Below, piece after piece: positions 11,027-28,963 of a stretch of DNA of 64,000 bases (the stretch's first letter is position 1; each line of letters begins with the position of its first letter). This DNA comes from an uncultured Elusimicrobia bacterium (GTDB lineage Bacteria; Elusimicrobiota; Elusimicrobia; UBA1565; UBA9628): the NCBI GenBank assembly GCA_964510095.1, contig CAZEAE010000001.1, positions 1 to 64,000 of the forward strand, read 5' to 3'. The notes below the pieces were generated by a model. It was not told the DNA's origin. It worked only from the letters and a program-made list of their open reading frames with translations, and searched no databases. The position numbers and the translations under genes were made by a program.

Positions 11027-11209
11027 GATGCTTTTATGTGAATCTCTCCTAAGTATTAAGCTGCGCCCCTCTTTTGTCAAGGCCCGCAGTCAAACCCGGT
11101 TTTTCATCGACCTCCGAAACACGCAACCCCGTTTCTGGAGCCGATGCCGCCGACCGCCTTCCCTTCCGCCTCAGGACTTGATCGCGGCCCAGGGTTACAA
11201 TACGATGAG

Positions 11210-13878: not shown

Positions 13879-14757
13879 ATGAGAAGCAATAGCTATCGGA
13901 GCCTGGCGGGAGTTCTCTGCCTGCTCGCCCATGCGAGCCTCGCTTGGGCCGGCGCGGGGTTCGGCCCGGGGCAAAACCTGGATGTCGAAGAGTTCTTGCG
14001 CGCAGCCCGGGCCGGCGACGGCCCGGCCGCGCCGCGGTCATGCCACCCCGGCCAAGCGGTCGAATGGGTGGCCATCAAAGGAGGGAAATTCGCGATGGGC
14101 GCCGACAACGGCGATAGCGATGCCAAGCCGCTCCACGAGGTCGCCATCAAAACCTTTGAGATGTCCAAGGCCTTGATTACCGTGGAGCAATACGCCGAGT
14201 GCGTAATCAAAGGCGGTTGTACGGAGCCGGGCGCCGGTGAGTACTGCAATTGGGGGAAGACGGACCGGCAGCGCCACCCGGTCAATTGCGTGGACTGGAA
14301 ACAGGCCGACCGGTACGCGAAATTCAAGGCCGCGCGGTTGCCCAGCGAGTCCGAGTGGGAGTACGCGGCGACCAGCGGGGGCAGGAACCAGAAATACCCT
14401 TGGGGCAACGAGGAGCCGAGCTGCGAGAGGGCCGTGATGCACGGCGAGGACGCCTATGGCTGCGACGGCGGGGGCACGATGCCGGTCTGCTCGAAGCCCG
14501 ACGGGAACACCGCGCAGGGTCTGTGCGACATGGCGGGAAACGTCTGGCAGTGGGTGCAGGACAAATATCAGGACTCGTATGCCGATGCGCCTGCGGACGG
14601 CAGCGCGTTTGAGGCTGCGGGCTCCTACCGGGTATGGCGTGGCGGCTCCTTCATCAACGGCGGCGCCAGGTACCTGCGGGCCAAATACCGCAACAACGTC
14701 GGCCCCGGCTACCGCGGCAGCCTCGTTGGCTTCCGCGTGGCGAGGTCGAGCCGTTGA
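13879..14757 (+). CDS. Secreted FGE-sulfatase (SUMF1/formylglycine-generating enzyme) domain protein
   Basis: Signal peptide then SUMF1 domain motifs: VTVEQYAECV, HPVNCVDWKQADRYAKFKAARLPSESEWEYAA, GNVWQWVQDKY, RVWRGGSFINGGARYLRAKYRN...GFRVARS. Confidence 0.75.
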   Translation: MRSNSYRSLAGVLCLLAHASLAWAGAGFGPGQNLDVEEFLRAARAGDGPAAPRSCHPGQAVEWVAIKGGKFAMGADNGDSDAKPLHEVAIKTFEMSKALITVEQYAECVIKGGCTEPGAGEYCNWGKTDRQRHPVNCVDWKQADRYAKFKAARLPSESEWEYAATSGGRNQKYPWGNEEPSCERAVMHGEDAYGCDGGGTMPVCSKPDGNTAQGLCDMAGNVWQWVQDKYQDSYADAPADGSAFEAAGSYRVWRGGSFINGGARYLRAKYRNNVGPGYRGSLVGFRVARSSR

Positions 14758-14821
14758 CCAGGAGGAAGGCCCGATTCGGGGCTGCCAGGAGTTCGATAAG
14801 ACTTGAAGCAAAGGAGAAACC

Positions 14822-15394
14822 ATGAAAAGCAAAAGGACGCCTTCACGACTCAAGATCGCGCTGGCCCTGACGGCGCTGTGCCTTTCCAGCCAGGCCGTCG
14901 CCGCGGAGACTTCCCTCGGCGAAGCCTTCGGCTCCGTGCAGGAAACGGTCCAAGCCGGCAAGACGCGGCTCAAGGCGACCCGCGCCGCCCCGGTGATCAT
15001 CGCCGAGCGCGGCGTATACAAGGCCTCGCTGACGACGCTTCTCGCCAAGCAGAAGTGCTCATCGCAATTCGAGCAGGTCAACGGCCGCGAGCCTCTGGCG
15101 ACGTGCGCCGTTGACGCCGGCGCGCCGGGAATGATCAAGCCCGTCGCGATCCTTCCCTTCGGGCTTCACGGCGAGTTCGACTCCGAGATCGGCGCGGGCT
15201 CAAAAGTGGGCTGCACCGGCGGCATCCGCGCAGACGCGGGCCTGGCGGGCCAGTTCCAGATATTCGTCGGCCTCAGCCCCTACAGCCTCGATTATTCGAA
15301 GGAGCAGTTCCAGCAGTGCTTCGAGTCCGTGATCTCCAAACTCCAGGCCAAGGACCGGGTCATGTACTTCGAAGCGGTTCAGACGGCGAAATGA
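14822..15394 (+). CDS. Secreted Cys-containing hypothetical protein, paralog family A (member 1)
   Basis: Signal peptide + conserved leader MKSKRTPSRLKIALALTALCLSSQAVAAETSLGEAFGSVQETVQAGKTRL shares ~85% nt identity with the 5' end of the 17336 gene; AAGGAGA RBS. Confidence 0.5.
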   Translation: MKSKRTPSRLKIALALTALCLSSQAVAAETSLGEAFGSVQETVQAGKTRLKATRAAPVIIAERGVYKASLTTLLAKQKCSSQFEQVNGREPLATCAVDAGAPGMIKPVAILPFGLHGEFDSEIGAGSKVGCTGGIRADAGLAGQFQIFVGLSPYSLDYSKEQFQQCFESVISKLQAKDRVMYFEAVQTAK

Positions 15395-17226
15395 GACGGC
15401 AGGCGATCCCGCTCGCGGCCTTGGCCGCGCTGCTGGCGGCGCTTGTCCTGCCCGTCGGCGCGGCGGACGGCCCGGCCGCCTCCGAGGTCGACCTGAGCGC
15501 GCGCTACCTGCCGGGCGGGTCATGGTTCGACGTGGGCGACCAGGGGCTGGCGATACGCCTGACAGGCCGCCCTGCCGTCAACGGGATCGTGGATTTCCGC
15601 GGCCAAGCGGGGGGCGCCTTGGCCTTCGAGGCCCGTCCGCTCTCTTCGGCGCAGCCGCCCTACGGCTACTCCTTGATCGGAAGCGCGGTCTCCGCGCGCG
15701 TCACGCGCTTCGGCGCGGGCTTCCTTCTAGAAGGCCAAGCGGGCGGCAGACCCCTGGCGCTGACCTTGGAGCGCCTGCGTGATCAAGACTACCAGGTCGT
15801 CGGCCGCGACGGAACGAAGCTCAAGGCCTGGATCACCCCCTCCCTGGCCCGCCTGCAAGGACGCTTCGAGCCGGAGAAAACATCGCGAGAGGGGCTGGCC
15901 GTCCTGGGCGCGGCGCTGGCCCTGATGTTCTCGGAGCAACCCGCGACGCCGCCTCGCGCCGCCTCCGACGCCGGCGCAAGCGAAGCAGCTCACGAACCCG
16001 CCGCTGCTTTGAATGAGAGCGTCTCCGCCGAGGGATTGGACTTGGACGCCCTTTTCGACGGCGTGAAGGACTTCCGCGGAGCCGTCCATGTCCACACCTC
16101 CCTCTCGCGCGACAGCCACGCCTCGCCGGAGGATCTGGTCAAAGCCGCCAATGAGATCGGCCTGGACTTCGTGATGACCTCCGATCACCGGGGGCAGGAC
16201 GTCTACGCGAAGTCGCTGCGCGGCATGCAAGGCGGCACTCTCTTCATACCCGGGATGGAAGTCATCCAAGGAGGCTCCGGGCTCTTCGGGAACTGCTGGC
16301 CGCCCTCGGTCTGCAACTCGGCTCTCTACTTGAACATGAGCGATTCGACCACGGTCACCAATCCAGATCTTGAGCGGCTGCTGACGGGCCCGCGCGGCCC
16401 GGAAGAACTTGTGATCGTGGCCCATCCCTTGGGTTTCAAAGATTGGGAGCACGGAAACATCGACGGGATGGAGATCTACGATCTGGCCGATGAGTTCATG
16501 CCGCCCTGCGTCTGGGGGACCTTGCGCAGGATCCTCGCGCTGGTCCTGCGGGCCGTCGGCGTCCGGTTGTTCGACCAGCCCACGGAGGACATCCTGATCG
16601 ACCGGCTGCAAAGGCCCGACGCGCACCTCAAGAAGTGGGACGAATTGCTCTCCCAGGGCCGGCACGTCGTGGGCGTCGGGGCTCCCGACGCCCATCAGAA
16701 CATGAGGATCTTCGGGGTGCAGCTGGACCGCTACGTCTTGACCCTGCGCTTTCCTTCCGTGCACATCCTGGCGCGCGAGCTGACCGCGCAGGCGCTGGCG
16801 GCCGCTCTCAAGAACGGCCGCAGCTACACCTCCTTCGACCTGCTCGCCGATCCCTCGGGGTTCAGATTCTCCGCCGCGGACGGCCAATCGTCGTATACAC
16901 AGGGAGACAGCATGCGCTTGGCCCGGGATCGGCCGGTGGTCTTCACCGCGATGTCGCCCCGCGAAGGCAGGATCAGGCTATTCAAGAACGGAGCGCTCGT
17001 CCAGGAGGCGTCCGGGGCACAGTTGGGCTTTACGACGCACGACCCCGGGGCGTATCGGGTCGAAGTCGAGCTGAACCTCAAAGGAGAATGGAAGCCTTGG
17101 ATCTTCTCGAACCCCATCTACTTGGAGCCAAGCCCCGAGACTCCAGAGCAGAAGGAATCGTCGCGGGACAACAACGCTTCGGCTGGCAGTCAAACCGGGC
17201 TTTCCAACGGCGGACCAAATGGATAG
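15391..17226 (+). CDS. Secreted PHP-domain (polymerase/histidinol phosphatase-like) metal-dependent phosphoesterase
   Basis: Start MRRQAIPLAALAALLAALVLPVGAADG overlaps the upstream stop (ATGA); PHP motif AVHVHTSLSRDSHASPEDLVKAANEIGLDFVMTSDHR. Confidence 0.6.
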   Translation: MRRQAIPLAALAALLAALVLPVGAADGPAASEVDLSARYLPGGSWFDVGDQGLAIRLTGRPAVNGIVDFRGQAGGALAFEARPLSSAQPPYGYSLIGSAVSARVTRFGAGFLLEGQAGGRPLALTLERLRDQDYQVVGRDGTKLKAWITPSLARLQGRFEPEKTSREGLAVLGAALALMFSEQPATPPRAASDAGASEAAHEPAAALNESVSAEGLDLDALFDGVKDFRGAVHVHTSLSRDSHASPEDLVKAANEIGLDFVMTSDHRGQDVYAKSLRGMQGGTLFIPGMEVIQGGSGLFGNCWPPSVCNSALYLNMSDSTTVTNPDLERLLTGPRGPEELVIVAHPLGFKDWEHGNIDGMEIYDLADEFMPPCVWGTLRRILALVLRAVGVRLFDQPTEDILIDRLQRPDAHLKKWDELLSQGRHVVGVGAPDAHQNMRIFGVQLDRYVLTLRFPSVHILARELTAQALAAALKNGRSYTSFDLLADPSGFRFSAADGQSSYTQGDSMRLARDRPVVFTAMSPREGRIRLFKNGALVQEASGAQLGFTTHDPGAYRVEVELNLKGEWKPWIFSNPIYLEPSPETPEQKESSRDNNASAGSQTGLSNGGPNG

Positions 17227-17335
17227 GGCCGTTTCTGGGGCCAATGCCAGGCTCGGCTTGCCCTTGCGCCTCAGGCCGAGCGCCCGACTTGGGGCTACAA
17301 TGAGTTCAAGAGAACTTGCCGGAAAAGGAGAAGCC

Positions 17336-18043
17336 ATGAAAAACAAGATGACGACTTCACGCCTCAAGATCGCGCTGGCCCTGACGGCGCTGTGCGCTTC
17401 CAGCTGGGCCGCCGCCGCGGAGACATCCCTCAGCGAAGCCTTCATCTCCCTGCAGGCGACGGTCCAAGCCGGCAGGGCGCGGCTCGACCAGGCCGCGGAA
17501 AGTTCGAAGCCCGCCGATATGGATGAGGACGACGTCGTCGTCACCCCTGGAATTGGCCATTGGGTCATGGACAAAGAAGACCGGGTCGGCCAAATCATCG
17601 AGATTTATCCAAACGGAGCCGCGCGTTATCAGGTCGGGAGCGACGTCTATATCTCGAACTATCTTTCCCTGGAGCAGGAACATGGAGACGGCGTGTGGAC
17701 CGGGGACACGGTGATCGATACCGACAATGAGATCGGAACGGTCATGCGCATCTTCTGCACGCGCAACCCGCGGGCTTTGCGCGATCCGGCCTGCCGCATC
17801 CAGTACAAGGTGAGAAACAGCTTCTATATCGCCAAAGGCGGCCTCAAGCGCGAGGTCCAGGAATATGTCAAGTCGGACTTCCCCCACCTCGGCCAGAAAG
17901 TTTCGCGAGGCTCCATGATCATCACCTCGGAGAACAATACGTTAACGGTGGATCAGCTCTTCTCGGACGGCCGCGTCCGCTTTCGCGTCGGCGCAAAATC
18001 AGAGATCCTGACCAGAGACCGCTACACCGCGGTCCAGCGTTGA
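17336..18043 (+). CDS. Secreted hypothetical protein, paralog family A (member 2), with three ~50-aa SH3-like repeats
   Basis: Leader MKNKMTTSRLKIALALTALCASSWAAAAETSLSEAFISLQATVQAGRARL matches family A; AAGGAGA RBS at 17324-17330; lower GC than surroundings. Confidence 0.5.
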   Translation: MKNKMTTSRLKIALALTALCASSWAAAAETSLSEAFISLQATVQAGRARLDQAAESSKPADMDEDDVVVTPGIGHWVMDKEDRVGQIIEIYPNGAARYQVGSDVYISNYLSLEQEHGDGVWTGDTVIDTDNEIGTVMRIFCTRNPRALRDPACRIQYKVRNSFYIAKGGLKREVQEYVKSDFPHLGQKVSRGSMIITSENNTLTVDQLFSDGRVRFRVGAKSEILTRDRYTAVQR

Positions 18044-18062
18044 ACGAAATGAAGGGGGGAAT

Positions 18063-18752
18063 ATGAAAAAATCGATATCCATCCGCCGCGCGGGGTCTTC
18101 CGTCGCCGTGATCCTAGGCGCCCTGGGGATTCTTGCCGCGACGAGCTCTGCTCAAAGCCCGGTCGAATGGAACGCCGGCGACCCGGTGATCCAGCTTCAG
18201 CAGCGCCTGGCCGAACAGCCCGCCGCGGCGACTCCACCGGCCAGGCCCGTGTCCATCAAACCCGAGGAGAAGGAGGTTAGCGGGATCGCCGACCCCGCTT
18301 TGACCGGAGACTACCGGCTCAAGGAGATCCGCGCCCAGGGCTTCCCTGAAAAACTGCGTTCGCATTACTGCCCCGACCGCCTCAGGGTCGTGCTCGACGA
18401 CCCTTCCCGCCGCGTCACCGTCTTCGGGAAGATGGACGACGAAGAGGGACCCGACGGCGAGTATCCTGGATACCGCCTCCTCAAGACTTTCTCCCCCTCT
18501 CGCCTGGTCAAGGAACCGGACGAGGTCGACCGCGGAGCCGTGACCGAAACGGCATTCGACGGCAAAGAGGTGCGCACCACCCATAACGGCTTCATGCTGC
18601 TGATCTTCAGCGTAGTGCATGAATACACCGGCCTGCGCCTGACCAGCCAGGACGTCTTGGTCTGGAAGCATTCCGAGACCGTCGTGCCGGCCGGCGCACT
18701 GCTCTCCAACGATGAAGACTACACCTGTCACTATGACAGAGCCGCCCGCTGA
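18063..18752 (+). CDS. Secreted hypothetical protein, paralog family B (member 1)
   Basis: MKKSISIRRAGSSVAVILGALGILAATSSAQSPVEWNAGDPVIQLQQRLAEQ shared with the 22001 gene (~88% nt identity over ~70 nt); RBS AAGGGGGG. Confidence 0.5.
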   Translation: MKKSISIRRAGSSVAVILGALGILAATSSAQSPVEWNAGDPVIQLQQRLAEQPAAATPPARPVSIKPEEKEVSGIADPALTGDYRLKEIRAQGFPEKLRSHYCPDRLRVVLDDPSRRVTVFGKMDDEEGPDGEYPGYRLLKTFSPSRLVKEPDEVDRGAVTETAFDGKEVRTTHNGFMLLIFSVVHEYTGLRLTSQDVLVWKHSETVVPAGALLSNDEDYTCHYDRAAR

Positions 18753-18767
18753 CGAAACACCTCGAGG

Positions 18768-20348
18768 TTGAACATGAAACGCTTGATGAACCCTGTCGCG
18801 CCGCTCCTGTCGCTCTCGTTGATTTTGACGGCCCCAGGCTTGGGCTGCTATGAAGCCGCGGCCGCCAGCTTCAAAGCCTTGCGAGTGGCGCCGCCGTCGA
18901 GCGCCATGAGCTTCAATCCGGGAGCTCTCGGCCGCTTCCCTGTCTCTTATCAGGGCGCCGGTTTGACCGCGCCGGGGTTTTTGACGCCGCTGCCCGTGAT
19001 CTCCGCGTTGACGCAGCCTGCCAGCATCCCCCAATTGAGCCCTTCGGCGCCTTCGGCGCTTGAGGGCGCGGCAGTCCCCGCGGCAATCGCGGCCACAGTC
19101 GAGGCGGGCCCCTCTTGGCAGCAGCGGCTTTCGGCCCTTGGTGAAGAGGTCAAGGGAATCGTTTCCTCCCGAGATGTCGGCGACCAAGCCGCGGTCCTGC
19201 GCCGCATATTCGAAGCCGGCCTAAGGCTTTCAGTCGCGCCCGAGACTCCCGAGGGCGCGCCAAAAGCCGCCTCCATTGGCTCTCCGCGGACGCGAAGGAT
19301 GCCCGAGGTCCTGGAGATATCCGAGTCCCGACGCCTCGACACGCTCGAAGGCCTATACGTCCGGACTCAGCCCCAAGGAGCGGTGGCCCCGCGCTCGTCG
19401 CCCCTCAAGAATAGGACCGCAGGAAAAATATCCCCGGAGCTCGATAGGATGCTGCGGCCCGAGAACGTCTATGACGTGACCGTCAGCTTGATAGCTCATC
19501 CTTCCGTGACCGAGGAAGACCAGCTGGTCTACTATTTGTCCGAGCTCGAAGGAGCCTCCTACCGGCACGACCACAGGAGCGGAAAGATATCCGTCCAGGG
19601 GATCAGCGGCCGGGATATCCGCGTCATCGCGGGCTTTCCCGCCGTGAGCCGCATCGCGGGGACATCCAAGGCGCCGACAGACGCCGCCACAAAAGGCCAG
19701 GGCGACAATCCGGAGGAAAAGACGCCCGTCATCTTCGTCGACAAGAAGCTCCGCCCGGACGTGGCCCTGCGCGTCCTGGAAGGCGCCGAACGGAACGACT
19801 TGGCGGCGCTCGACGGCAAAATCAATATCACCGTCGAAATCCGATCCAACCCGCGCAACCCCATGATCCTGATGAAGGGCGCCAACGGCTTTAGGACGAT
19901 GTTCTATCTGCACGAGGCCGGGGAGATGATCCGCGAACTGCAGTTTCGTTGGCACAAGCCTTCGACCTGGCTCCCGCGCGATGCCGACCCCGACAAGATG
20001 GACGCCGCCGAGCAGATGGACCTGGTGATCGCTTACGCGAAGGAAGCGTTCAAAGGGATCGTTTCCCGGGAAGGCAAGCCGAAAACGCCTTCAGAAAACT
20101 CCGGAATCTCCGGACTCTCGACAAAGAACGTCGTGCTGACGCTGACCGGACTCCTTAGCATAACCGGTCTCTTGGGCACATTGGGAATATTGACCGGGTT
20201 TTTCGCCTCCCTCCTGCCCCAAGTCCCTATTGAAGTCGCAGATTACATCTATGCCGTCAGCGGCAAGGCTCTCATAGGAGTGGCGGCCGGGACGGTTACT
20301 CTGGCCCTAGCGGGCATAGCCGCCTACCTTCTCTGGGCAAGAGAGTAA
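18768..20348 (+). CDS. Exported hypothetical protein, paralog family C (member 1), C-terminal double TM anchor
   Basis: First ~150 aa (signal + LSLSLILTAPGLGCYEAAAASF...PPSSAMSFNPG.LGR.PVSYQGAGLTAPG...SWQQRLS.LG.E.K.IVSSRD.GDQAA) conserved with the 20354 gene; unique C-terminal domain ending in two hydrophobic helices. Confidence 0.5.
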   Translation: MNMKRLMNPVAPLLSLSLILTAPGLGCYEAAAASFKALRVAPPSSAMSFNPGALGRFPVSYQGAGLTAPGFLTPLPVISALTQPASIPQLSPSAPSALEGAAVPAAIAATVEAGPSWQQRLSALGEEVKGIVSSRDVGDQAAVLRRIFEAGLRLSVAPETPEGAPKAASIGSPRTRRMPEVLEISESRRLDTLEGLYVRTQPQGAVAPRSSPLKNRTAGKISPELDRMLRPENVYDVTVSLIAHPSVTEEDQLVYYLSELEGASYRHDHRSGKISVQGISGRDIRVIAGFPAVSRIAGTSKAPTDAATKGQGDNPEEKTPVIFVDKKLRPDVALRVLEGAERNDLAALDGKINITVEIRSNPRNPMILMKGANGFRTMFYLHEAGEMIRELQFRWHKPSTWLPRDADPDKMDAAEQMDLVIAYAKEAFKGIVSREGKPKTPSENSGISGLSTKNVVLTLTGLLSITGLLGTLGILTGFFASLLPQVPIEVADYIYAVSGKALIGVAAGTVTLALAGIAAYLLWARE

Positions 20349-20353
20349 AAACC

Positions 20354-21811
20354 ATGAGACTCCTAATGAAGCCCATCGCGCCGCTCCTGTCGCTCTCCTT
20401 GATCCTGACGGCTCCGGGCTTGAGCTGCTTTGAAGCGGCGGCTGCCAGTTTCAATATCGTGAGGGTGACGCCGCCGTCCAGCGCCATGAGCTTCAATCCG
20501 GGATCGCTCGGACGCCTCCCTGTCTCTTACCAGGGCGCAGGTTTGACCGCGCCGGGGCTTTTGCCCCCGCCGTCCTTAACCTCCGCGCTAACGCTGCCTA
20601 GAGGCTATCCCCAATCAAGCGCCACGGCGCTCCCGACGCTTGCGGGCGCGGCCGCCCCCGCGGCGGTCCCCGCCGCAGTCGAGCCCGGAGCCTCCTGGCA
20701 ACAGCGGCTCTCCTCTCTTGGAGACGAGATCAAGGCAATCGTTTCCTCCCGGGATATCGGCGACCAAGCCGCGGGCCTGGGCCGCATCTTCGAAGCCGAC
20801 CGAATACTTTCAGCCACGACGCCAGGAGAAGGGGGCTTTGTGCCCGCAACCCGCAAGGCAGCAAGCGGCCTGAAGACGCCCAAGGCCGCCGCTGGCGGCG
20901 CAGGCCAGATCTCCCCGGAGGGAATGCGCGAGCACCGCTTCGAAGCCCTCATGGACGAGCGCGCCGAACGATATCGATCCGCTCACGCCCGGCTCGAATT
21001 CCTAAGCGGACACGCGAACGGCCTGAGCTCCGCGCTGGTGTCGCACATGGATTGGATGCTGCTTCCGATAGTCGGCTTCACGCTGGCGTGGAACATGCCC
21101 GTCTTGGCGGCCGTCGCGCTCCTGACGTTAGCCGCGACCGCAGCCCGATCCTACGCGCTGTACAAGGTCGCCGACCGCATCGGAGGCTTGTACGAGTCCT
21201 GGGGCCAGGGGCTGCAATCACTGCTTCGCTTGGAGCCTTCCTTGGATGGATCGGAGAAGGCACGCCTGGCCCAGGGAATGTACGACCTGCTGAGCTTCCC
21301 GCGCCGCGTCAGGGTTTTCGGAAGATACTACCCCATAAGCGTCGACGAGAACTGGCATCGCTGGGCCTCGATATTCCGGACTCATCTCGCCTCATTCCTA
21401 GACGACAGAAGCAGGCGAGAGTTGGTCCGATTGAGTTTTGAGCGCTCTCAGTACGCTCTCGGAAGGATCAGCCAACGCGACACCACGGACGCGAACGCCT
21501 ATTTTTCAGTTTTGATGCCTCTGCGGCTGCATACCCTGCTTAACGAACGGCAAAAAAAAGACTCTATCGAGTCCATGCTCGAGTTCTATGAGAGGGCGCT
21601 CTGGGTCCAGGGCTTCACCTACCCGATGGATGGCCAGGGCTTCGACGAGGTCGATCAAATGCTGCGCGACCGGCAGATACCGCGCGAATCAATCCGAAGC
21701 TTTTACCCCAGGTTCTACGCCTTGCTCGACCGGCAGCCATTCTTGGAGAGCCGGCCGTTACTGCTTAAGGTATTGAACCGCATGCGCGAGAACTTTAAGG
21801 AAAAGATATGA
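20354..21811 (+). CDS. Exported hypothetical protein, paralog family C (member 2), with internal TM hairpin and unique C-terminal domain
   Basis: N-terminal 150 aa paralogous to the 18768 gene; its own C-terminal ~230-aa domain is unrelated to member 1. Confidence 0.5.
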   Translation: MRLLMKPIAPLLSLSLILTAPGLSCFEAAAASFNIVRVTPPSSAMSFNPGSLGRLPVSYQGAGLTAPGLLPPPSLTSALTLPRGYPQSSATALPTLAGAAAPAAVPAAVEPGASWQQRLSSLGDEIKAIVSSRDIGDQAAGLGRIFEADRILSATTPGEGGFVPATRKAASGLKTPKAAAGGAGQISPEGMREHRFEALMDERAERYRSAHARLEFLSGHANGLSSALVSHMDWMLLPIVGFTLAWNMPVLAAVALLTLAATAARSYALYKVADRIGGLYESWGQGLQSLLRLEPSLDGSEKARLAQGMYDLLSFPRRVRVFGRYYPISVDENWHRWASIFRTHLASFLDDRSRRELVRLSFERSQYALGRISQRDTTDANAYFSVLMPLRLHTLLNERQKKDSIESMLEFYERALWVQGFTYPMDGQGFDEVDQMLRDRQIPRESIRSFYPRFYALLDRQPFLESRPLLLKVLNRMRENFKEKI

Positions 21812-21981
21812 AGAAGACGATCTTGATGCGCCGCGGCGGGGTCGGCCCAGACAAGAAATCGGGCCTGTCAAACCCTGTTTTTCAGCGACCGTCGGAATGC
21901 ATAACGGCGCTTCTGGAGCCAATGCCGCGCGCCGCCTTACCCGCAGCCCCAGGCCGAGAACCCGACATGGGATTACACTGA
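21808..21981 (+). pseudogene. Remnant 5' end of a family-B gene (MKKTILMRRGG...) fused to the conserved upstream element
   Basis: ATG overlapping the stop of the 20354 gene (ATGA); first ~35 nt match the family-B starts (atgaaaaagatgatcttgacgcgccgcg / atgaaaaaatcgatatccatccgccgcg), then diverges into non-coding-like sequence; 57 codons. Confidence 0.3.
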
Positions 21982-22000
21982 GGATATGAAAGGAGAAGAT

Positions 22001-22807
22001 ATGAAAAAGATGATCTTGACGCGCCGCGCCGGGCTTCCCGTTGCGCTGATACTCTGTACGTTGGGGACCATGGCCGCGACGGGCTCGGCCCAGAGCCCGG
22101 TCGACTGGAATTCCGGCGACCCCGTGCTCCAGCTTCATCAGCGCCTGGCCGAACAGACGCCGGCCGCCGTCTCACCCACCGGCGCGGCGGTGCTGGAAAC
22201 GGGACGCCCCGTGCTTGATCTCGTGAACAAAGTCGCCGGGTTGTATATGGGAGACAAGAACCCCGACACCGCCGTTCTAGAACCCGACCGCCGCAAGAAT
22301 CAACTGAGAGTCTCCTCGTGGCTTCAGAAGAAGTCCGAGATCCGAGCGGAAATCCTTGAGCCCGTTGGAATCAAAAAAGGAGACGCGATTTTAGTTTATG
22401 ATAAAATCGCGCCTTTATCCTCCAAGATCCTGGGGGTTTATGAAGAAGGTTACCTCTATTTCGAGGGACGAAGCCGCTGGGTCGCCACTTCTGATTACTC
22501 AGACACCACGGCTCCGACCTATGTCATCAAGAAAGCTGAGGACATCTTCCTCGAAGTCGGCGAGATCGATGGCATGCGGGCGGGGCAGGCCGTCTGCTTG
22601 AAGGAAGACCATGACTCCGGTGGAGACAAATTCAAGGCAGGAAAAAAAGGAAAGATCGAGCATGTTTTCTCGAACGGCGTCGCTGAAGCCTCCTTCAGCC
22701 CCCCGCTGAATATCGTTCGATTGCCCTTGGCTTTTTTGGGGATGAAAGAGAGTCTTTTTTTGAAGATCGCGGATTTGAAAGACTGTTCAACCAGGAGGAA
22801 AAAATGA
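22001..22807 (+). CDS. Secreted hypothetical protein, paralog family B (member 2), SH3-like repeats
   Basis: AAGGAG RBS 6 nt before ATG 22001 (the ORF track start at 21986 includes the RBS); leader MKKMILTRRAGLPVALILCTLGTMAATGSAQSPVDWNSGDPVLQLHQRLAEQ; the body is ~50% GC. Confidence 0.5.
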   Translation: MKKMILTRRAGLPVALILCTLGTMAATGSAQSPVDWNSGDPVLQLHQRLAEQTPAAVSPTGAAVLETGRPVLDLVNKVAGLYMGDKNPDTAVLEPDRRKNQLRVSSWLQKKSEIRAEILEPVGIKKGDAILVYDKIAPLSSKILGVYEEGYLYFEGRSRWVATSDYSDTTAPTYVIKKAEDIFLEVGEIDGMRAGQAVCLKEDHDSGGDKFKAGKKGKIEHVFSNGVAEASFSPPLNIVRLPLAFLGMKESLFLKIADLKDCSTRRKK

Positions 22808-23436
22808 AACGCCAGGAACATAGCCCCCTATTGTCCGCCGGTCTGAGTCTGCTGCTCCTCTCCGCGGCGGGCAAACCGCTCAGCGCGGCAAGCCTCGCGC
22901 CGGCCCCGCTGGAAGCCTCCCTGGAGGCCGCGTTCGCCCAGGCGCGCGTCGCCGTCGCCGACGCCGCGATCAAGGATTTCTCGGACGCCGACGCCCTGGC
23001 TTCGGCCGCCGGCGTCTGGGTCATGCGCCTGCGCGCCGACGCCAATGCCCTTGCCGCCCGGGCCCAAGCGCGTCCGGCCGACCCGGCCCTGGGCCGGGAG
23101 CTTCAGGCCCTGGAAGACCACACGCAGGACCTGGATTCCGATTTAGCCGGGCTCGACCGCGACCTGAGGGGGCTCATCGCGCGGGCGCCGGCGCTCATTT
23201 CCATCAAAGACCGCGTCTCCTTCCTTCCGGACATGATCTTCGCCGCGCGTAGCAGCCTCTGGCTCGCCTGGCAGGAGGCGTTCCCCCGAGCCGAGGTCTT
23301 CCGCCGGTCGGATCTGGCGACCTCCTTCGCGCGCTTCCAACGCGCGCTCGAGCACGCCGAGGCCGCCGCCCAGAAATGCGAGGAGTCCGCCCTAGAGCTC
23401 AAACACGCGGTGGACGCGGCGTCCCGCGGGCGCTGA
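22804..23436 (+). CDS. Secreted Ala-rich helical hypothetical protein
   Basis: Signal peptide LLSAGLSLLLLSAAGKPLSAASLA; ATGA overlap with the upstream gene; coiled-coil-like composition. Confidence 0.4.
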   Translation: MKRQEHSPLLSAGLSLLLLSAAGKPLSAASLAPAPLEASLEAAFAQARVAVADAAIKDFSDADALASAAGVWVMRLRADANALAARAQARPADPALGRELQALEDHTQDLDSDLAGLDRDLRGLIARAPALISIKDRVSFLPDMIFAARSSLWLAWQEAFPRAEVFRRSDLATSFARFQRALEHAEAAAQKCEESALELKHAVDAASRGR

Positions 23437-23443
23437 CCCCATC

Positions 23444-23800
23444 ATGCGCGCTCTCATCGTAGACGACGACGTAAACGTCGCCAAGATCCTGCGGCGGCAT
23501 TTGACCGCGTGGGGTTGGGAGACCGACGTAAGCACCACCGTGGCCGACGCTATCATGCTCTTCAAGGAAGGCCGGTATGACCTAGCGCTTTGCGACGTGG
23601 ACTTGCCGGACGGCGACGGTATATCCTTGGCCAGTGTCTTTCTAGGGGCTTTGCCGTCGCTGTCGGTCATCATCGCTTCCGGCGATCCCAAGAATCTGGA
23701 ACGCGCCCAAGAAGCCGGTTTCGCGCGCTGCCTCGAGAAGCCTTTTTCTCTGGAGAATCTCAAAGCCTTGCTCGAAGAAGCCCTGAAGGGCCGGCTGTAA
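23444..23800 (+). CDS. Stand-alone response-regulator receiver (CheY-like) protein
   Basis: MRALIVDDDVNVAKILRRHL...LALCDVDLPDGDGISLA with the phospho-acceptor Asp context (LCDVDLPDGDG); 118 aa, no output domain. Confidence 0.8.
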   Translation: MRALIVDDDVNVAKILRRHLTAWGWETDVSTTVADAIMLFKEGRYDLALCDVDLPDGDGISLASVFLGALPSLSVIIASGDPKNLERAQEAGFARCLEKPFSLENLKALLEEALKGRL

Positions 23801-23828
23801 TGACGTATACTTTCCCGGAGAGCGTCCC

Positions 23829-24698
23829 GTGACCAATAAGCCGATGGCCTTCGCCGCCGTCCTCACCCAGTTCAGAAAGGAGGCCGGCTACTCCTCCGCC
23901 CGCGACTTTTATAGGGCCGTCGGAGCCCAGGGCACCTTCGGCTGCACCTACGCGCAATACCTCAACATCGAGGCGGGCCGCTCGACGCCGAAGCCCACCC
24001 TGGTCCGCAAGATCATGGCCCTGCTGGAACTCTTCCCCCGCGACGCCAAGGGCCGCGAGTTCATCACCGCCTATTTCAGGGCGCTGCTCAAGGATGAAGA
24101 TTTTTTCGAACTGGCCCTTCAGGCCCTCTCGGGGGGGCCTTCGGCGCAGGGACAGGACGACGCGCCATTGAGCCAGGCCCTGAAGACAAGCGTCGCGCTA
24201 AAACAGGTCTGGCTGACCGACAAGCAAGTCGCCGTGATCGAGGGCGACCGGACCGCCTACTGGTGTTTCGAGGTTTTTTGCAATGACGGCCGGGACTGGG
24301 GAACGCTGGAGCTTTCCCACCTGCTCGGCCACAATGTGAAGGCGATCTCGGCGGCTCTTAAAAAACTACAAAAAGCCGCTCTGATCGTGGCGGCCCCGGA
24401 TGGGCGCTACCGTTGCTTTGCCAAGGACAAGATCCTCGCTTTCCCCCGGAAGGACATGTTCCTCCCGGAGAACATCGACCGCGCGCGCGGCTATCTGGAG
24501 GAGATGGCGCAAAGCCGCGGCCGCTTCGAGCTGTACCAAAACCTCAGCCTGCGCGCTTCCTCGAAACGTCTCAAGCAATACTACCCCCACCTGGCCCAAA
24601 GCGTCGCCGGCGCCAATATCTATTCGAGCCCGGAAAAGGGCGACGACACGGGCTTCTACGTGATCGAGACCATCGTCCGCAGGCTGTTCGACTTCTAA
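23829..24698 (+). CDS. HTH-domain protein (XRE-like N-terminus; resembles the TIGR02147-type paralogous family)
   Basis: N-terminal FRKEAGYSSARDFYRAVGAQGTFGCTYAQYLNIEAGRSTPKPTLVRKIMALL fits an HTH-XRE fold; the remaining ~200 aa have no recognised domain. Confidence 0.5.
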   Translation: MTNKPMAFAAVLTQFRKEAGYSSARDFYRAVGAQGTFGCTYAQYLNIEAGRSTPKPTLVRKIMALLELFPRDAKGREFITAYFRALLKDEDFFELALQALSGGPSAQGQDDAPLSQALKTSVALKQVWLTDKQVAVIEGDRTAYWCFEVFCNDGRDWGTLELSHLLGHNVKAISAALKKLQKAALIVAAPDGRYRCFAKDKILAFPRKDMFLPENIDRARGYLEEMAQSRGRFELYQNLSLRASSKRLKQYYPHLAQSVAGANIYSSPEKGDDTGFYVIETIVRRLFDF

Positions 24699-24699
24699 G

Positions 24700-25329
24700 A
24701 TGAAGCGCTGGCGAGAAAGTCTGGCGATGATCAGCCTTCTTATCCTGGCGATGGATGCATCCGCGGCCGGCGTCCCGGTGCGCGGCCCTCAGCCGGTCGT
24801 GCAGGCCGAACTGAGCTTCAGCCGCACCTGCGCCGACGGCACGCCCCGCTATGCGCTGGCCGATGTCTCGAAAGACCTCGGCCCCTCGCTCGATATCACC
24901 ACGGAAAAGAGCAAGATCGGCTATCTCTACGTCCTGGAGGCCGGCTACCGCCCCATCATGGACGCCGACCAACCCGGAGCGCCCATCTTCCTCAGCGACG
25001 CTTCGACCGGCAACCGCCTCCCTTTCGCCGTCCTGGACCCCAAGGACATCCCCCCTTGCAGGAGCGGGGGCGGCCGGGAATACGCGTCGCCGGTGCGCAT
25101 CCGGCTGGAGCCTTCGGTCCGAGCGGAGCTTGAGATCAAGCCTCGGACGGGGATCTTCCGGCCGGCCTGCTACAAGAACGTGACCACGGGCGCCTACAAG
25201 CTCGACCTCTGGAACATACTGACCCTCAAGCTGCCGGATCGCAAGATCGAGGTCAAAAGCGCCGACTCCGAATCCTTCCAGGATGAAGAAGAATGCCGTA
25301 GATTCTACGAGGCGATGAAAAGTCCTTAG
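24700..25329 (+). CDS. Secreted hypothetical protein
   Basis: Signal peptide MISLLILAMDASAAG; no recognised domain. Confidence 0.4.
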   Translation: MKRWRESLAMISLLILAMDASAAGVPVRGPQPVVQAELSFSRTCADGTPRYALADVSKDLGPSLDITTEKSKIGYLYVLEAGYRPIMDADQPGAPIFLSDASTGNRLPFAVLDPKDIPPCRSGGGREYASPVRIRLEPSVRAELEIKPRTGIFRPACYKNVTTGAYKLDLWNILTLKLPDRKIEVKSADSESFQDEEECRRFYEAMKSP

Positions 25330-25368
25330 GGCCCTTGATAATCCCGCCCTCCCGGTTATACTAGCCTT

Positions 25369-26319: not shown

Positions 26320-26332
26320 GGCCGGCGATCCC

Positions 26333-26830
26333 ATGGAACTGCTCATCATACGACATGGCTTGGCCGGCGACAAAGCCGATTGGGCCAAGGCCGGCAAGGA
26401 CGATGCCGAGCGCCCGCTTACCAAGGAAGGGCGACGCAAGCTCAAGCAAGAGGCGCCGGGCCTGGCCGAAGCCTTCGGTCGGGCCGGCCTGCTGGCCTCG
26501 AGCCGGCTGGCGCGCGCCCTGCAGACCGCGGAGCTCCTGCGCAAGGCGCTAGGCAAGCCGCCGCTGACTCTGACCGAGGCTCTTAGCCCCGCGGCCCCCC
26601 CGAAAGCGGTCTTGGCTTGGCTGTCCACCCTCAAGCAGGAGAAAGTGACCCTCGTCGGCCACGAACCTCACCTGAGCCGGTTGATCGCGCTGCTTTGCAC
26701 CGGAAGAACCGCGCCCTTCACCGAGCTGAAGAAGGGGCAGGCCTGCCTCCTGGAGTTCGCCGGTCCCGTCAAAGCCGGCGCGGCCAAGCTGCGGTGGTCG
26801 CTGAGCCCTGGACAACTGCGAGCTCTCTGA
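26333..26830 (+). CDS. sixA: Phosphohistidine phosphatase SixA
   Basis: MELLIIRHGLAGDK...AERPLTKEGRR...LASSRLARALQTAE...VTLVGHEPHLSRL: histidine-phosphatase RHG motif and SixA-like length (165 aa). Confidence 0.75.
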   Translation: MELLIIRHGLAGDKADWAKAGKDDAERPLTKEGRRKLKQEAPGLAEAFGRAGLLASSRLARALQTAELLRKALGKPPLTLTEALSPAAPPKAVLAWLSTLKQEKVTLVGHEPHLSRLIALLCTGRTAPFTELKKGQACLLEFAGPVKAGAAKLRWSLSPGQLRAL

Positions 26831-26833
26831 AGG

Positions 26834-28868: not shown

Positions 28869-28963
28869 CCGCTAGATGATACATCACAAAGACGGGGTCG
28901 CGAGGCTCTTTGGCGTTGACGGGCCTCAATACGATTTCGCCCGTTTTGTGGTAGAATCGGCTC

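What the first reader, a model, noticed from the sequence alone, without database searches (positions are those of the whole stretch)
17500..22800. Local GC dips coincide with the variable bodies of the paralog genes
By eye the sequence drops from ~67% GC to ~50-58% GC in the bodies of the 17336, 18768 (3' half), 20354 (3' half) and 22001 genes (e.g. 22261-22800), while the shared leaders stay high-GC. This is a compositional mosaic. It suggests the variable modules were acquired horizontally or are evolving under different constraints than the host-like leader modules.
Basis: seen in the sequence. Interest (0 to 1): 0.5.

Follow-up and report, generated by a model that had tools for sequence, protein, structure and literature searches.

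The report
GC dips reflect protein composition, not import
The GC dips are real, but in four of the five genes they arise only because alanine/proline-rich export leaders sit in front of ordinary folded domains. Only one gene body (22184-22807) looks compositionally foreign, and the more interesting feature is a set of promoter-plus-leader cassettes that reassort with unrelated protein bodies in a small clade of uncultured Elusimicrobiota.

Summary
Against a window background of 66.2% GC, the bodies of genes 17336, 18768 (3' part), 20354 (3' part) and 22001 fall to 0.48-0.58, while their shared 5' leaders stay at 0.65-0.73.

Excluding gene 22001, the whole leader/body contrast lies at codon position 2 (0.579 vs 0.442, p=2e-6). 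That position reflects amino-acid composition. GC3 is the same in leaders and bodies (0.761 vs 0.766). The leaders are not host-like (GC3 0.75-0.86, CAI 0.42-0.57; core genes 0.87-0.94, 0.61-0.81).

The same modules show the same GC dips in orthologous loci of related Elusimicrobiota. The bodies of 18768 and 20354 are complementary pieces of one gene that is still fused in relatives. Between genomes, bodies are more conserved than leaders. These bodies are therefore vertically inherited.

The exception is the 22001 body: GC 0.52, GC3 0.63, a tetranucleotide outlier, no ortholog in syntenic relatives, and only two marginal distant homologs. It may be a recent import, or a fast-evolving young gene fused to a native promoter and leader.

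Underneath is a locus of unannotated secreted proteins in which at least four leader types, preceded by a conserved promoter-like element, reassort with unrelated bodies. This resembles the Borrelia erp genes.

The parts
11075..11217 (+). Copy 1 of a conserved ~150-nt upstream (promoter-like) element, in front of the large secreted protein gene. The likely true start of that gene is ATG 11210.
   Evidence: Three-way alignment. nhmmer score 131.9. The motif TTCTGGRGCCRATGCC occurs 3 times against 0.23 expected.
11210..13840 (+). Large signal-peptide protein (about 876 aa) with no known domain. It is conserved next to the leader genes in all related loci.
   Evidence: tblastn 32-35% identity to L001, L002, L005 and L017. 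No Pfam, NCBIfam or PDB match.
13879..14757 (+). FGE-sulfatase-domain protein carrying leader D (signal peptide plus the tag AGFGPGQNLDVEEFL).
   Evidence: Pfam PF03781, E=2e-49. Its N-terminus is 67% identical to the leader of the 14822-type gene in L001 and L004. The same leader+FGE combination is seen in L012.
14769..14971 (+). Leader C, copy 1: 53 nt upstream plus the first 50 codons of gene 14822-15394.
   Evidence: 84% nt identity to 17282-17485. dS between the two copies is 0.107 [0.02-0.22], against 0.29-0.44 for orthologous bodies.
14972..15394 (+). Body of gene 14822. In L001 and L004 the orthologous body carries leader D, and in P0014 it carries leader A, which shows leader swapping.
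   Evidence: Body 77-79% aa identical to L001/L004, whereas the leader is only 22-27% identical. P0014 sequence.
15391..17226 (+). Secreted PHP-domain protein. Its N-terminal domain occurs as a stand-alone ~210-aa protein in relatives.
   Evidence: Weak Pfam PHP match, E=1.8e-4. Residues 53-215 are 69-71% identical to stand-alone genes in L002, L003, L005 and L006.
17171..17333 (+). Copy 2 of the upstream promoter-like element.
17336..17485 (+). Leader C, copy 2: signal peptide plus the tag ETSLSEAFISLQATVQAG.
   Evidence: GC 0.66, GC3 0.86.
17486..18043 (+). Body of gene 17336 and the first GC dip (0.582). It is predicted to form three small beta-barrel (Tudor/SH3-like) repeats and is conserved with leader C in all relatives.
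   Evidence: GC2 0.40, GC3 0.76. Six full-length homologs, all Elusimicrobiota. AF2 domains pLDDT 70-83. Weak Foldseek hits to tandem Tudor/Agenet domains.
18063..18242 (+). Leader A, copy 1: signal peptide plus the tag QSPVEWNAGDPVIQLQQRLAEQ.
   Evidence: dS to the leader of gene 22001 is 0.80.
18243..18752 (+). Body of gene 18063, with a mild dip (0.625). Orthologs are present in L001, L010 and L012.
18768..19232 (+). Leader B, copy 1: signal peptide, a Pro/Ala/Ser-rich stretch and the conserved motif SWQQRLSALGEEV..SSRDVGDQAA..RIFEAG.
   Evidence: 81% nt identity to 20353-20813. GC3 0.75, CAI 0.43.
19233..20348 (+). Body of gene 18768: linker, I-module (19422-19721), P-module (19722-20078) and TM-module (20079-20345, GC 0.569, GC3 0.64).
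   Evidence: The modules match P0002 and P0003 in a different order. Module GC is conserved in L001 and L004.
20354..20812 (+). Leader B, copy 2.
20813..21811 (+). Body of gene 20354. It keeps only 'ISPE' of the I-module and then the D-module. The C-terminal half, 21374-21808, is the GC dip (0.545, GC2 0.37, GC3 0.72).
   Evidence: Alignment A1. The orthologous D-module C-terminal half has GC 0.57-0.62 and GC2 0.35-0.41 in four relatives.
21808..21851 (+). Truncated leader-A stub that starts at the stop codon of gene 20354. It looks like a recombination scar.
   Evidence: Direct repeats D1 and D5 match 21990-22033 and 22073-22094. Window 21780-21840, which includes the start of the stub, is 92% identical to the L004 junction 3531-3591, where a full leader-A gene follows the B gene.
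21850..21998 (+). Copy 3 of the upstream promoter-like element, directly in front of gene 22001.
   Evidence: nhmmer score 146.6..
22001..22183 (+). Leader A, copy 2. It is closer to the leader-A genes of other genomes than to the window's own copy.
   Evidence: 89% nt identity to L010, 86% to L001 and L009, but 72% to the 18063 leader. dS to L010 is 0.10 [0.02-0.20].
22184..22807 (+). Orphan body of gene 22001, the deepest dip (GC 0.52, GC3 0.63, CAI 0.35). It contains a 13-bp-arm palindrome at 22381-22414.
   Evidence: composition. (homologs). (palindrome).
22804..23436 (+). Secreted helical protein (GC 0.71). Its body type is joined to leader A in other genomes (P0012, P0017).
   Evidence: tblastn 52% identity to L017 4696-5178.
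23444..23800 (+). Response-regulator receiver protein, conserved at the edge of the locus in relatives.
   Evidence: Pfam Response_reg listed for the identical gene in L007. Homologs in L001, L005 and L017.
23829..24698 (+). HTH-domain protein, conserved next to the leader genes in every related locus. It is a candidate regulator.
   Evidence: Weak HTH_31 match. 27-31% identity homologs in L001-L006, L015 and L017.

Best explanation
**Cause of the GC mosaic.** It is mainly a by-product of protein architecture, not of foreign origin. Each gene in the cluster has two parts:
- an N-terminal leader, made of a Sec-type signal peptide, a conserved tag of about 20-25 residues at the predicted mature N-terminus, and an Ala/Pro/Gly-rich linker, all encoded by GC-rich codons;
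- a folded body richer in Lys, Asn, Ile, Tyr, Phe, Asp and Glu, which are encoded by AT-richer codons.

In a 66% GC genome this produces leader peaks (0.65-0.73) and body dips (0.54-0.62) at codon position 2, while the synonymous position stays the same.

**Origin of the bodies.** The bodies of 17336, 18063, 18768 and 20354 are vertically inherited and under purifying selection. Genes 18768 and 20354 arose by tandem duplication of one leader-I-(P)-D gene, after which the two copies lost complementary modules.

**What underlies the paralogy.** The paralog pattern comes from portable 'promoter + ribosome-binding site + leader' cassettes. There are at least four leader types (A-D). They have repeatedly been copied or recombined onto unrelated bodies within a small Elusimicrobiota clade.

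**The exception.** The 22001 body has in addition a real drop in synonymous GC. It is a lineage-specific addition fused to a native promoter element and native leader A.

**Shown versus inferred.**
- Shown: the composition decomposition, the orthology and synteny, the module rearrangement, the leader/body reassortment and the conserved upstream element.
- Inferred: that the leaders act as export/sorting tags, that the upstream element is a promoter/operator, and the recombination mechanism.
For: **Codon-position decomposition.**
- Pooled without gene 22001, leader vs body is GC1 0.627/0.613 (not significant), GC2 0.579/0.442 (p=2e-6) and GC3 0.761/0.766 (p=0.84).
- The GC expected from amino acids under core codon usage accounts for the whole contrast in 18063, 18768 and 20354, about 60% of it in 17336 and about 50% in 22001.
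- Other secreted genes of the locus with Ala-rich N-termini show the same N-terminal GC excess.

**Signatures.** Di- and tetranucleotide signatures of four bodies lie inside the null.

**Vertical inheritance.**
- Module GC is conserved across orthologs. The TM-module has GC 0.57/0.60/0.57 and GC3 0.64/0.65/0.64 in the window, L001 and L004. The D-module C-terminal half has GC 0.54-0.62 in five genomes.
- Synteny with L001, L004, L005 and L017.
- Fused proteins P0002, P0003, P0005 and P0006 contain the modules of both 18768 and 20354. Gene 20354 retains an 'ISPE' remnant of the I-module.
- Bodies are 77-88% aa identical between genomes and leaders 60-70%. Omega is mostly lower in bodies.

**Leader reassortment.**
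- The 14822 body occurs with leader C (window), leader D (L001, L004) and leader A (P0014).
- Leader A occurs on at least 8 unrelated bodies.
- The P0008-type body occurs with leader A or leader D.
- A 43-aa leader-C-only remnant exists in L002.
- A leader-A stub lies at 21808-21851.

**Conserved upstream element.** It is present three times in the window, and its core is found in front of transcription units in five related loci.

**Not an assembly artefact.** Window 17762-31811 is 100% identical to an NCBI MAG contig, and 17836-28778 to an independent Logan assembly.
Against: - The whole cluster (13.8-26.3 kb), leaders included, has lower GC3 (0.63-0.86) and CAI than the flanking core genes. 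An ancient acquisition of the whole locus by the common ancestor of these lineages cannot be excluded.
- The TM-module keeps GC3 near 0.64 in three lineages. Amino-acid composition does not explain this.
- About 40% of the 17336 contrast and about 50% of the 22001 contrast are synonymous.
- The background consists of the 64-kb window only, not the whole genome, and the codon reference is dominated by one giant ORF.
- No function is known for any leader or body. There are no Pfam, NCBIfam, PADLOC or PDB hits, so the proposed export/sorting role of the tags is inference.
Confidence: 0.8

Rival explanations
1. One reading: all the variable bodies were acquired horizontally and grafted onto host-like leaders, and the GC dips are un-ameliorated foreign DNA.
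For: The dips lie in the lower 1-4% of window GC. The cluster as a whole has lower GC3 and CAI than the flanking genes. All the proteins lack known families.
Against: - Leader and body have the same GC3, 0.761 vs 0.766.
- The leaders are themselves not host-like.
- Oligonucleotide signatures are within the null.
- The same bodies with the same module GC sit in syntenic loci of at least four related lineages.
- The 18768 and 20354 bodies are fragments of one ancestral gene.
- Bodies are more conserved than leaders.
Confidence: 0.05
2. Only the 22001 body (22184-22807) is a recent horizontal acquisition from a lower-GC donor. It was fused in frame behind a native promoter element and a native leader A by recombination that left the leader-A stub at 21808-21851.
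For: - GC 0.52, GC3 0.63 and CAI 0.35, against 0.84 GC3 in its own leader.
- Tetranucleotide distance exceeds 300/300 null samples, as does the IS200-like element.
- It is absent from the syntenic position in L001, L004, L005 and L017.
- Its only body homologs are distant (27-32% identity), carry unrelated signal peptides and sit in other contexts.
- A leader stub and duplicated junction are present.
- Its leader is closer to leaders in other genomes (dS 0.10 vs L010) than the background divergence of 0.29-0.44.
Against: - There is no integrase, tRNA or long flanking repeat, and no donor has been identified.
- The one homolog with DNA available (P0019) has gene GC3 0.78 in a 64% GC contig.
- Another lineage-specific body on leader A or D (the P0008 type) keeps lowered GC3 (0.64-0.84) in three diverged lineages. 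This suggests that low GC3 can be a persistent trait of this gene class rather than a sign of recent import.
- Half of the dip is still amino-acid composition.
Confidence: 0.4
3. The 22001 body is a young, fast-evolving native gene, or an old one retained only in this lineage. Weak selection on codon usage lets AT-biased mutation lower its GC3, with no transfer from another organism.
For: - The whole class of leader-bearing genes has reduced GC3 in every lineage examined: 0.72-0.85 vs 0.88-0.94 for the flanking genes in L001, L002, L015 and L017.
- The promoter element and leader are native.
- The neighbouring gene 22804 has normal composition.
Against: GC3 of 0.63 is well below the other locus genes (0.74-0.86). 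The tetranucleotide signature is an outlier even though the other bodies are not. Distant homologs with other signal peptides exist elsewhere.
Confidence: 0.35
4. The mosaic is an assembly or binning chimera of a metagenome-assembled genome.
For: The source is a MAG.
Against: The same sequence is found 100% identical in an NCBI MAG contig (106 kb) and an independent Logan assembly of run ERR3858132. The 22001 protein is recorded on three contigs of up to 331 kb. ORFs are intact across all junctions.
Confidence: 0.02

Closest known systems
Borrelia burgdorferi erp (OspE/OspF/Elp; 'upstream homology box') lipoprotein genes on cp32 prophages
   Same: The paralogs share a conserved promoter/operator region, a conserved leader polypeptide and the first residues of the mature protein, while the remainder of the ORFs have diverse origins and recombine. 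[quoted passage not shown] The window shows the same logic: a conserved upstream element, shared leaders and unrelated bodies that reassort.
   Different: - There is no sequence homology.
- The locus is chromosomal, not on a prophage plasmid.
- There are at least four leader types rather than one.
- The conserved mature tags are about 20-25 residues plus a Pro/Ala linker, rather than a 5-residue sorting sequence.
- There is no convincing lipobox.
- The organism is a free-living, uncultured Elusimicrobiota, so immune evasion is not an obvious driver.
Polymorphic toxin / effector systems (conserved N-terminal trafficking region, variable C-terminal domain, C-terminal displacement by recombination)
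   Same: A conserved N-terminal region is combined with unrelated C-terminal modules. There is evidence of C-terminal replacement at a fixed position: L009 carries leader A plus a different body at the position of gene 18063. Leader-only remnants also occur.
   Different: No toxin, immunity, Rhs, PAAR, LXG or filamentous-haemagglutinin domain was detected. The proteins are small (200-530 aa) and have plain Sec signal peptides. No orphan C-terminal cassettes with immunity genes lie downstream.
GARP versus FYMINK amino-acid effect on local GC (established knowledge: amino-acid composition and codon position 2 co-vary with GC; Ala/Gly/Pro/Arg codons are GC-rich)
   Same: This explains the leader/body contrast: GARP 0.39 vs 0.30 and FYMINK 0.14 vs 0.21, with the difference confined to GC2.
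   Different: Here the effect operates within single genes, between domains, rather than between genomes. It does not explain the GC3 drop in the 22001 body.
Gene fission/fusion with complementary domain loss after tandem duplication (subfunctionalisation by domain partition)
   Same: Genes 18768 (leader-I-P-TM) and 20354 (leader-'ISPE' remnant-D) together carry the modules that are fused in P0002 (leader-TM-I-P-D), P0003 (leader-TM-I-D) and P0005/P0006 (leader-I-D).
   Different: The module order is also circularly permuted (TM-I-P vs I-P-TM). Simple duplication followed by deletion does not explain this by itself.

Membership tests
Recently horizontally acquired DNA (genomic islet) | Synonymous-site composition or codon usage differs from the host and from adjacent native sequence | tested here: not met
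   For the bodies of 17336, 18063, 18768 and 20354, body GC3 equals leader GC3 (0.766 vs 0.761, p=0.84) and CAI is similar. The feature is met only for the 22001 body (GC3 0.63 vs 0.84, p=0.002).
Recently horizontally acquired DNA (genomic islet) | Atypical oligonucleotide signature | tested here: not met
   The fraction of null samples at or above the observed tetranucleotide distance is 0.10-0.49 for four bodies. For the 22001 body it is 0/300, as for the IS200-like element.
Recently horizontally acquired DNA (genomic islet) | Absent from the syntenic position in close relatives | tested here: not met
   The 17336, 18063, 18768 and 20354 bodies are present in L001, L004, L005, L010 or L017 at 63-88% aa identity. 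The feature is met for the 22001 body, which has no ortholog.
Recently horizontally acquired DNA (genomic islet) | Mobility signatures: integrase or transposase, tRNA target, flanking direct repeats | tested here: not met
   The window has no tRNA and no mobility gene between 11 and 27 kb. The only repeat flanking 22001 is the leader-A stub.
Borrelia Erp-type promoter/leader cassette family (by analogy) | Conserved promoter/operator DNA upstream of the paralogs | tested here: met
   A ~150-nt element occurs three times in the window. Its core, CTTCCCTTC..CAGG..(about 22 nt)..GCTACAATGA, is conserved at 11 sites in 6 genomes. Promoter activity was not tested.
Borrelia Erp-type promoter/leader cassette family (by analogy) | Conserved leader polypeptide and first residues of the mature protein, joined to unrelated bodies that recombine | tested here: met
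   Leader pairs are 68-76% aa identical and bodies 24-26%. Leader A is found on at least 8 unrelated bodies. Leaders are swapped between orthologous bodies.
Borrelia Erp-type promoter/leader cassette family (by analogy) | Lipoprotein signal (lipobox Cys) and surface localisation | tested here: inconclusive
   Read by eye from the sequences. Leader C has a conserved Cys (LTALC), but with Leu at position -1. Leader B has PGLGC, which is lost in P0005 and P0006. Leader A has no conserved Cys. No lipoprotein predictor was available, and localisation cannot be tested here.
Borrelia Erp-type promoter/leader cassette family (by analogy) | Sequence homology to Erp proteins / location on cp32-like prophage | tested here: not met
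   No Pfam or NCBIfam hits. The context is chromosomal, with housekeeping genes such as PEPCK and polyphosphate kinase nearby.
Polymorphic toxin system | Recognisable toxin domain at the C-terminus and a cognate immunity gene downstream | tested here: not met
   No toxin or immunity families in Pfam, NCBIfam or PADLOC. One leader-A protein from another genome (P0016) has an HEMTH motif, but no family match.

The most novel reading that the evidence does not exclude
The conserved mature N-terminal tags are QSPVDWNxGDPVLQLQQRLAEQ (A), SLSEAFxSxQATVQAG (C), AGFGPGQxLDVxEFL (D) and the longer B leader. Together with their linkers and the shared promoter element, they could constitute an undescribed sorting or docking system of Elusimicrobiota. 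In that reading, a cell-envelope partner encoded in the same locus (for example the conserved 780-900-aa secreted protein) recognises the tags. The promoter+leader cassettes would then act as a gene-building device that recruits new bodies, some of them foreign such as the 22001 body, into one co-regulated secreted repertoire.
Probability: 0.25. Interest if true: 0.6.

Novelty: new member of a known kind. Interest (0 to 1): 0.33.

Why it matters
**As proposed.** The finding is a cautionary case. Within-gene GC dips of 5-10 points in a high-GC genome can come entirely from codon position 2, that is, from an Ala/Pro-rich signal peptide and linker in front of a folded domain. Such dips should not be read as horizontal transfer unless GC3 or codon usage and comparative data agree.

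**What lies underneath.** The locus is mildly interesting. It belongs to a small clade of uncultured Elusimicrobiota and consists entirely of unannotated secreted proteins. It evolves by reassorting promoter+leader cassettes with unrelated bodies, by gene fission and by module permutation. This converges on the Borrelia erp design. It offers a tractable set of sequences for asking what short mature N-terminal tags do in this phylum, and how new secreted proteins are assembled.

Tried and rejected
**Function searches that found nothing.**
- Pfam, NCBIfam and PADLOC scans of all locus proteins and of leader-bearing proteins from other genomes gave nothing beyond FGE-sulfatase, a weak PHP and a weak HTH match.
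- PDB sequence searches with the large protein and with the B-family profile gave no hits.
- An Rfam search of 10.5-24.5 kb gave no hits, so the upstream element is not a known RNA family.
- The sigma-70 consensus scan found no promoter in the cluster.

**Structure prediction.**
- The AF2 model of protein 22001 was too poor (mean pLDDT 42) to search with.
- The 17336 model (mean pLDDT 58) gave only weak hits to tandem Tudor/Agenet/KOW domains (E>=4.7e-3). I take this as a fold hint only.

**Ideas tested and dropped.**
- That the 22001 and 17336 bodies are related: BLASTP E=0.29, rejected.
- That the motif TGGAGCCAATGCC is a sigma-54 promoter: checked by eye and rejected, because the GG-to-GC spacing is 7 nt rather than 10.
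- That leader similarity within the genome reflects concerted evolution. This may hold for the leader C pair (dS 0.107). It is rejected for leader A, where the within-genome dS is 0.80 and the 22001 leader is closer to leaders in other genomes.

**Searches limited by data.**
- The genome-contig scan with the B-family alignment returned only the already known MAG contig JAUYSH010000048.1, so no further species could be added.
- No DNA was available for the contig of the distant body homolog P0020.

Full report
**Source and context**

The window is 65.6% GC. Positions 17762-31811 are 100% identical to contig JBBTLF010000002.1 of the NCBI MAG GCA_038068815.1, annotated as an Elusimicrobiota bacterium. 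Positions 17836-28778 are 100% identical to an independent Logan assembly of run ERR3858132. The flanking genes are ordinary chromosomal genes: a histidine kinase, polyphosphate kinase, PEPCK and a B12-radical-SAM enzyme. Their GC3 is 0.87-0.94.

Between about 13.8 and 26.3 kb lies a co-oriented cluster of signal-peptide proteins. Apart from an FGE-sulfatase domain, a weak PHP match, a receiver domain and a weak HTH match, they have no family assignment.

Yes.
- 200-bp windows fall to 0.55-0.595 in 17500-18099, 0.565-0.58 in 20000-20399, 0.53-0.575 in 21400-21899 and 0.48-0.55 in 22200-22899.
- The 5' parts of the genes reach 0.67-0.73.
- Outside the cluster, 200-bp windows average 0.662 (sd 0.045, 5th percentile 0.580, 1st percentile 0.541).
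- The 17336 body mean lies at the 3.8th percentile. The minima in the 18768 and 20354 bodies lie near the 1st percentile. The 22001 body lies at or below the 0.6th percentile, matched only by an IS200-like element at 47.4-47.9 kb.

Self-blastn confirms three leader-sharing pairs: 14769-14971/17282-17485 (84%), 18046-18241/21983-22183 (77%) and 18773-19233/20353-20813 (81%). The bodies of these pairs are unrelated, at 24-26% identity in forced global alignment.

**What causes the dips?**

I split each gene at the end of the paralog similarity and compared codon positions.
- Pooling 17336, 18063, 18768 and 20354, leader vs body is GC1 0.627/0.613 (p=0.64), GC2 0.579/0.442 (p=2e-6) and GC3 0.761/0.766 (p=0.84).
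- The GC expected from the amino-acid sequence under the codon usage of the core genes reproduces the whole contrast for 18063, 18768 and 20354. It reproduces about 60% for 17336 and about 50% for 22001.
- Leaders are enriched in Gly/Ala/Arg/Pro (0.39 vs 0.30) and depleted in Phe/Tyr/Met/Ile/Asn/Lys (0.14 vs 0.21).
- Other secreted genes of the locus with Ala-rich N-termini show the same N-terminal GC excess, for example +0.108 in the PHP protein and +0.062 in the FGE-sulfatase protein. Cytoplasmic core genes range from -0.06 to +0.06.
- The leaders are not host-like. Their GC3 is 0.75-0.86 and CAI 0.42-0.57, against 0.87-0.94 and 0.61-0.81 for most core genes (one, 46409-47491, has 0.84 and 0.57). 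The bodies have CAI of 0.43-0.65.
Only the 22001 body (0/300) and the IS200-like element (0/300) are outliers.

**Are the bodies foreign?**

Comparative data say no for four of them.

The family is tiny. A search of 5.8 billion protein clusters with 18768 returned six proteins. Two carry an organism name, both Elusimicrobiota MAGs, and the other four are unnamed metagenome sequences.

Contigs from related organisms (L001, L004, L002/L003, L005/L006, L010, L012, L017) carry a syntenic locus. In L001 the order is:
1. an HTH gene;
2. an 11144-like large protein;
3. a 14822-type gene;
4. a 17336-type gene;
5. an 18063-type gene;
6. one B-family gene;
7. a response regulator.

Two further points follow.
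- **Conservation.** Orthologous bodies are 77-88% aa identical to the window, while the leaders are only 60-70%. Omega is 0.21-0.35 for most bodies and 0.43-0.82 for the C and B leaders. The exceptions are the 18063 leader (0.18-0.27) and the TM module (0.60). So the bodies are 'variable' only between paralogs. Between genomes they are the conserved part.
- **Module-level GC is inherited.** The TM-module has GC 0.57/0.60/0.57 and GC3 0.64/0.65/0.64 in the window, L001 and L004. The C-terminal half of the D-module has GC 0.54/0.57/0.58/0.58/0.62 and GC2 0.35-0.41 in five genomes.

**History of genes 18768 and 20354**

In relatives, a single protein carries the modules of both genes:
- P0005/P0006: leader-I-D;
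- P0003: leader-TM-I-D;
- P0002: leader-TM-I-P-D.

The window has leader-I-P-TM (18768) followed by leader-'ISPE' remnant-D (20354). The two leaders have dS 0.415, about the same as or slightly below the orthologous divergence of leaders (0.46-0.53).

The simplest reading is a tandem duplication in the window lineage followed by complementary module loss. An additional permutation of the TM module remains unexplained. These two 'variable bodies' are therefore pieces of one vertically inherited gene.

**What the paralogy really is: reassorting leaders**

I distinguish four leader types:
- **A:** signal peptide + QSPVDWNxGDPVLQLQQRLAEQ + Pro/Ala linker;
- **B:** about 155 aa;
- **C:** signal peptide + SLSEAFxSxQATVQAG;
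- **D:** signal peptide + AGFGPGQxLDVxEFL.

They are combined with different bodies in different genomes.

| Body type | Leaders seen with it |
|---|---|
| 14822-type | C (window), D (L001, L004), A (P0014) |
| FGE-sulfatase | D (window, L012) |
| 18063-type | A (window, L001, L010, L012), another leader (L017) |
| 22001-type | A (window); unrelated signal peptides in the distant homologs P0019 and P0020 |
| P0008/P0015-type | A (L009, L015), D (L017) |
| 24700-type | A (L004), its own leader (window), another leader (L017) |
| 22804-type | A (P0012, P0017), its own leader (window) |
| HEMTH-motif body (P0016) | A |
| Helical body (P0018 cluster) | A; member P0024 carries the same AAB320 locus-tag prefix as the window genes, so probably the same MAG |

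Scars of the process are visible.
- L002 has a 43-aa leader-C-only ORF.
- In the window, a truncated leader-A start lies at 21808-21851, exactly at the stop codon of 20354. The stretch 21780-21840, which spans the end of 20354 and the start of this stub, is 92% identical to the junction in L004, where a complete leader-A gene follows the B gene.

Leader and body histories are discordant.
- The two C leaders in the window have dS 0.107 [0.02-0.22], against 0.29-0.44 for orthologous bodies. This suggests a recent intragenomic copy onto 14822.
- The 22001 leader has dS 0.10 [0.02-0.20] to the leader of the 18063-type gene in L010, but 0.80 to the window's own 18063 leader.
- Caveat: the leaders are only 50-60 codons long, and 5' synonymous sites may be constrained.

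**A conserved upstream element**

The similarity of the C pair begins 53 nt upstream of the start codon.
- A ~150-nt element occurs three times in the window (11075-11217, 17171-17333, 21850-21998). These copies lie in front of the large-protein gene, 17336 and 22001.
- Its 3' core, CTTCCCTTC..CAGG..(about 22 nt)..GCTACAATGA, recurs in front of transcription units in L001 (twice), L002, L004, L005 (twice) and L012. It ends 20-45 nt before the start codon at most sites.
- It has no Rfam match, and the sigma-70 consensus scan did not pick it up.

I infer that it is a locus-specific promoter/operator, possibly served by the conserved HTH and receiver proteins. This is not shown.

**The exception: the 22001 body**

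- Its GC is 0.52, GC3 0.63 and CAI 0.35. The drop from its own leader is significant at position 3 (0.84 to 0.63, p=0.002) as well as at position 2.
- An exhaustive HMMER search of 1.84 billion representatives found only leader hits plus two marginal body homologs: P0019 (E=3.6e-4) and P0020 (E=5.8e-4). They are 27-32% identical, carry unrelated signal peptides and sit in unrelated contexts.
- The body is absent from the syntenic position in relatives. It sits behind a native promoter element and leader, next to the leader stub.
- These facts fit either a recent import fused to a native cassette or a fast-evolving lineage-specific gene. I cannot separate the two.
- Against a simple import: there are no mobility signatures. 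In addition, the P0008-type body keeps reduced GC3 in three diverged lineages. That shows low GC3 can be a stable trait of this gene class.

**Function**

No function could be assigned.
- The AF2 model of 17336 shows a long N-terminal helix (the tag, at low confidence) and three small beta-barrel repeats (pLDDT 70-83). Foldseek hits to tandem Tudor/Agenet/KOW domains are weak.
- The 22001 model is poor except for one small beta unit at residues 185-236.
- My mechanistic proposal is that the leaders are Sec signal peptides plus retained N-terminal tags that target a co-regulated set of secreted proteins. This rests on sequence features and on conservation of the tags across unrelated bodies. 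It is inference.

**Comparison with known systems**

- The closest analogue is the Borrelia erp family. Those genes share promoter/operator DNA, the leader polypeptide and the first residues of the mature lipoprotein, while the rest of the ORFs derive from many origins and recombine (PMC10016077).
- This locus has the same logic but no homology to erp. It is chromosomal, uses several leader types with longer mature tags, and has no clear lipobox.
- It also resembles polymorphic-toxin C-terminal displacement, but no toxin or immunity domains were found.

**Verdict**

The horizontal-transfer reading is rejected for four of the five bodies and remains open for 22184-22807. The finding as stated is ordinary, because the GC mosaic is driven by amino-acid composition. 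The underlying cassette-shuffled locus of unannotated secreted proteins is a modestly interesting new example of a known evolutionary design.

Noticed in passing
window 11075-11217, 17171-17333, 21850-21998: A ~150-nt conserved upstream element occurs three times in the window. Its core, CTTCCCTTC..CAGG..GCTACAATGA, is conserved in front of transcription units in five related Elusimicrobiota loci. It is probably a locus-specific promoter/operator. It has no Rfam match.
   Followed up: partly
window 21808-21851: A truncated, internally deleted copy of the leader-A start begins at the stop codon of gene 20354. It is annotated as the start of a 57-aa ORF in L008. It looks like a recombination scar left by the arrival of the 22001 cassette.
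   Followed up: yes
window 22381-22414: A palindrome with 13-nt arms (92% complementary, 8-nt gap) lies inside the coding region of gene 22001, in its lowest-GC patch (GC 0.47). It was flagged as terminator-like on both strands. Its significance is unknown.
   Followed up: no
window 47531-48427: An IS200-like Y1 transposase ORF (47580-48401; Pfam Y1_Tnp, E=1.8e-11; GC3 0.63) is bracketed by a perfect 32-bp inverted repeat (47531-47562 / 48396-48427). This is the only other region of the window as GC-poor as the 22001 body. Such long terminal inverted repeats are not typical of IS200/IS605 elements.
   Followed up: no
window 48437-63994 (- strand): A giant ORF of more than 5185 codons (GC3 0.94) runs off the end of the window. 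It contains an internal ~900-bp repeat (49161-50055 vs 50835-51729, 72% identity).
   Followed up: no
window 18768-21811 vs L001 7013-9412 and L004 1499-3562: The module order of the B-family protein is circularly permuted between genomes: I-P-TM in the window and TM-I-P in L001. Duplication followed by deletion does not fully explain this.
   Followed up: partly
window 15391-17226: The secreted PHP-domain protein appears to be a fusion. Its N-terminal ~165 residues occur as a stand-alone ~210-aa secreted protein in L002, L003, L005 and L006 (69-71% identity).
   Followed up: partly
window 33078-34093 (- strand): A second low-GC patch (1-kb GC 0.582; 200-bp minima 0.515-0.565) covers two small ORFs with GC3 of 0.70-0.72.
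   Followed up: no
window 13.8-26.3 kb; related loci L001, L002, L015, L017: All leader-bearing secreted-protein genes have GC3 about 0.05-0.15 lower than the flanking genes in every lineage examined. The trait is persistent and class-wide, and amino-acid composition does not explain it.
   Followed up: partly
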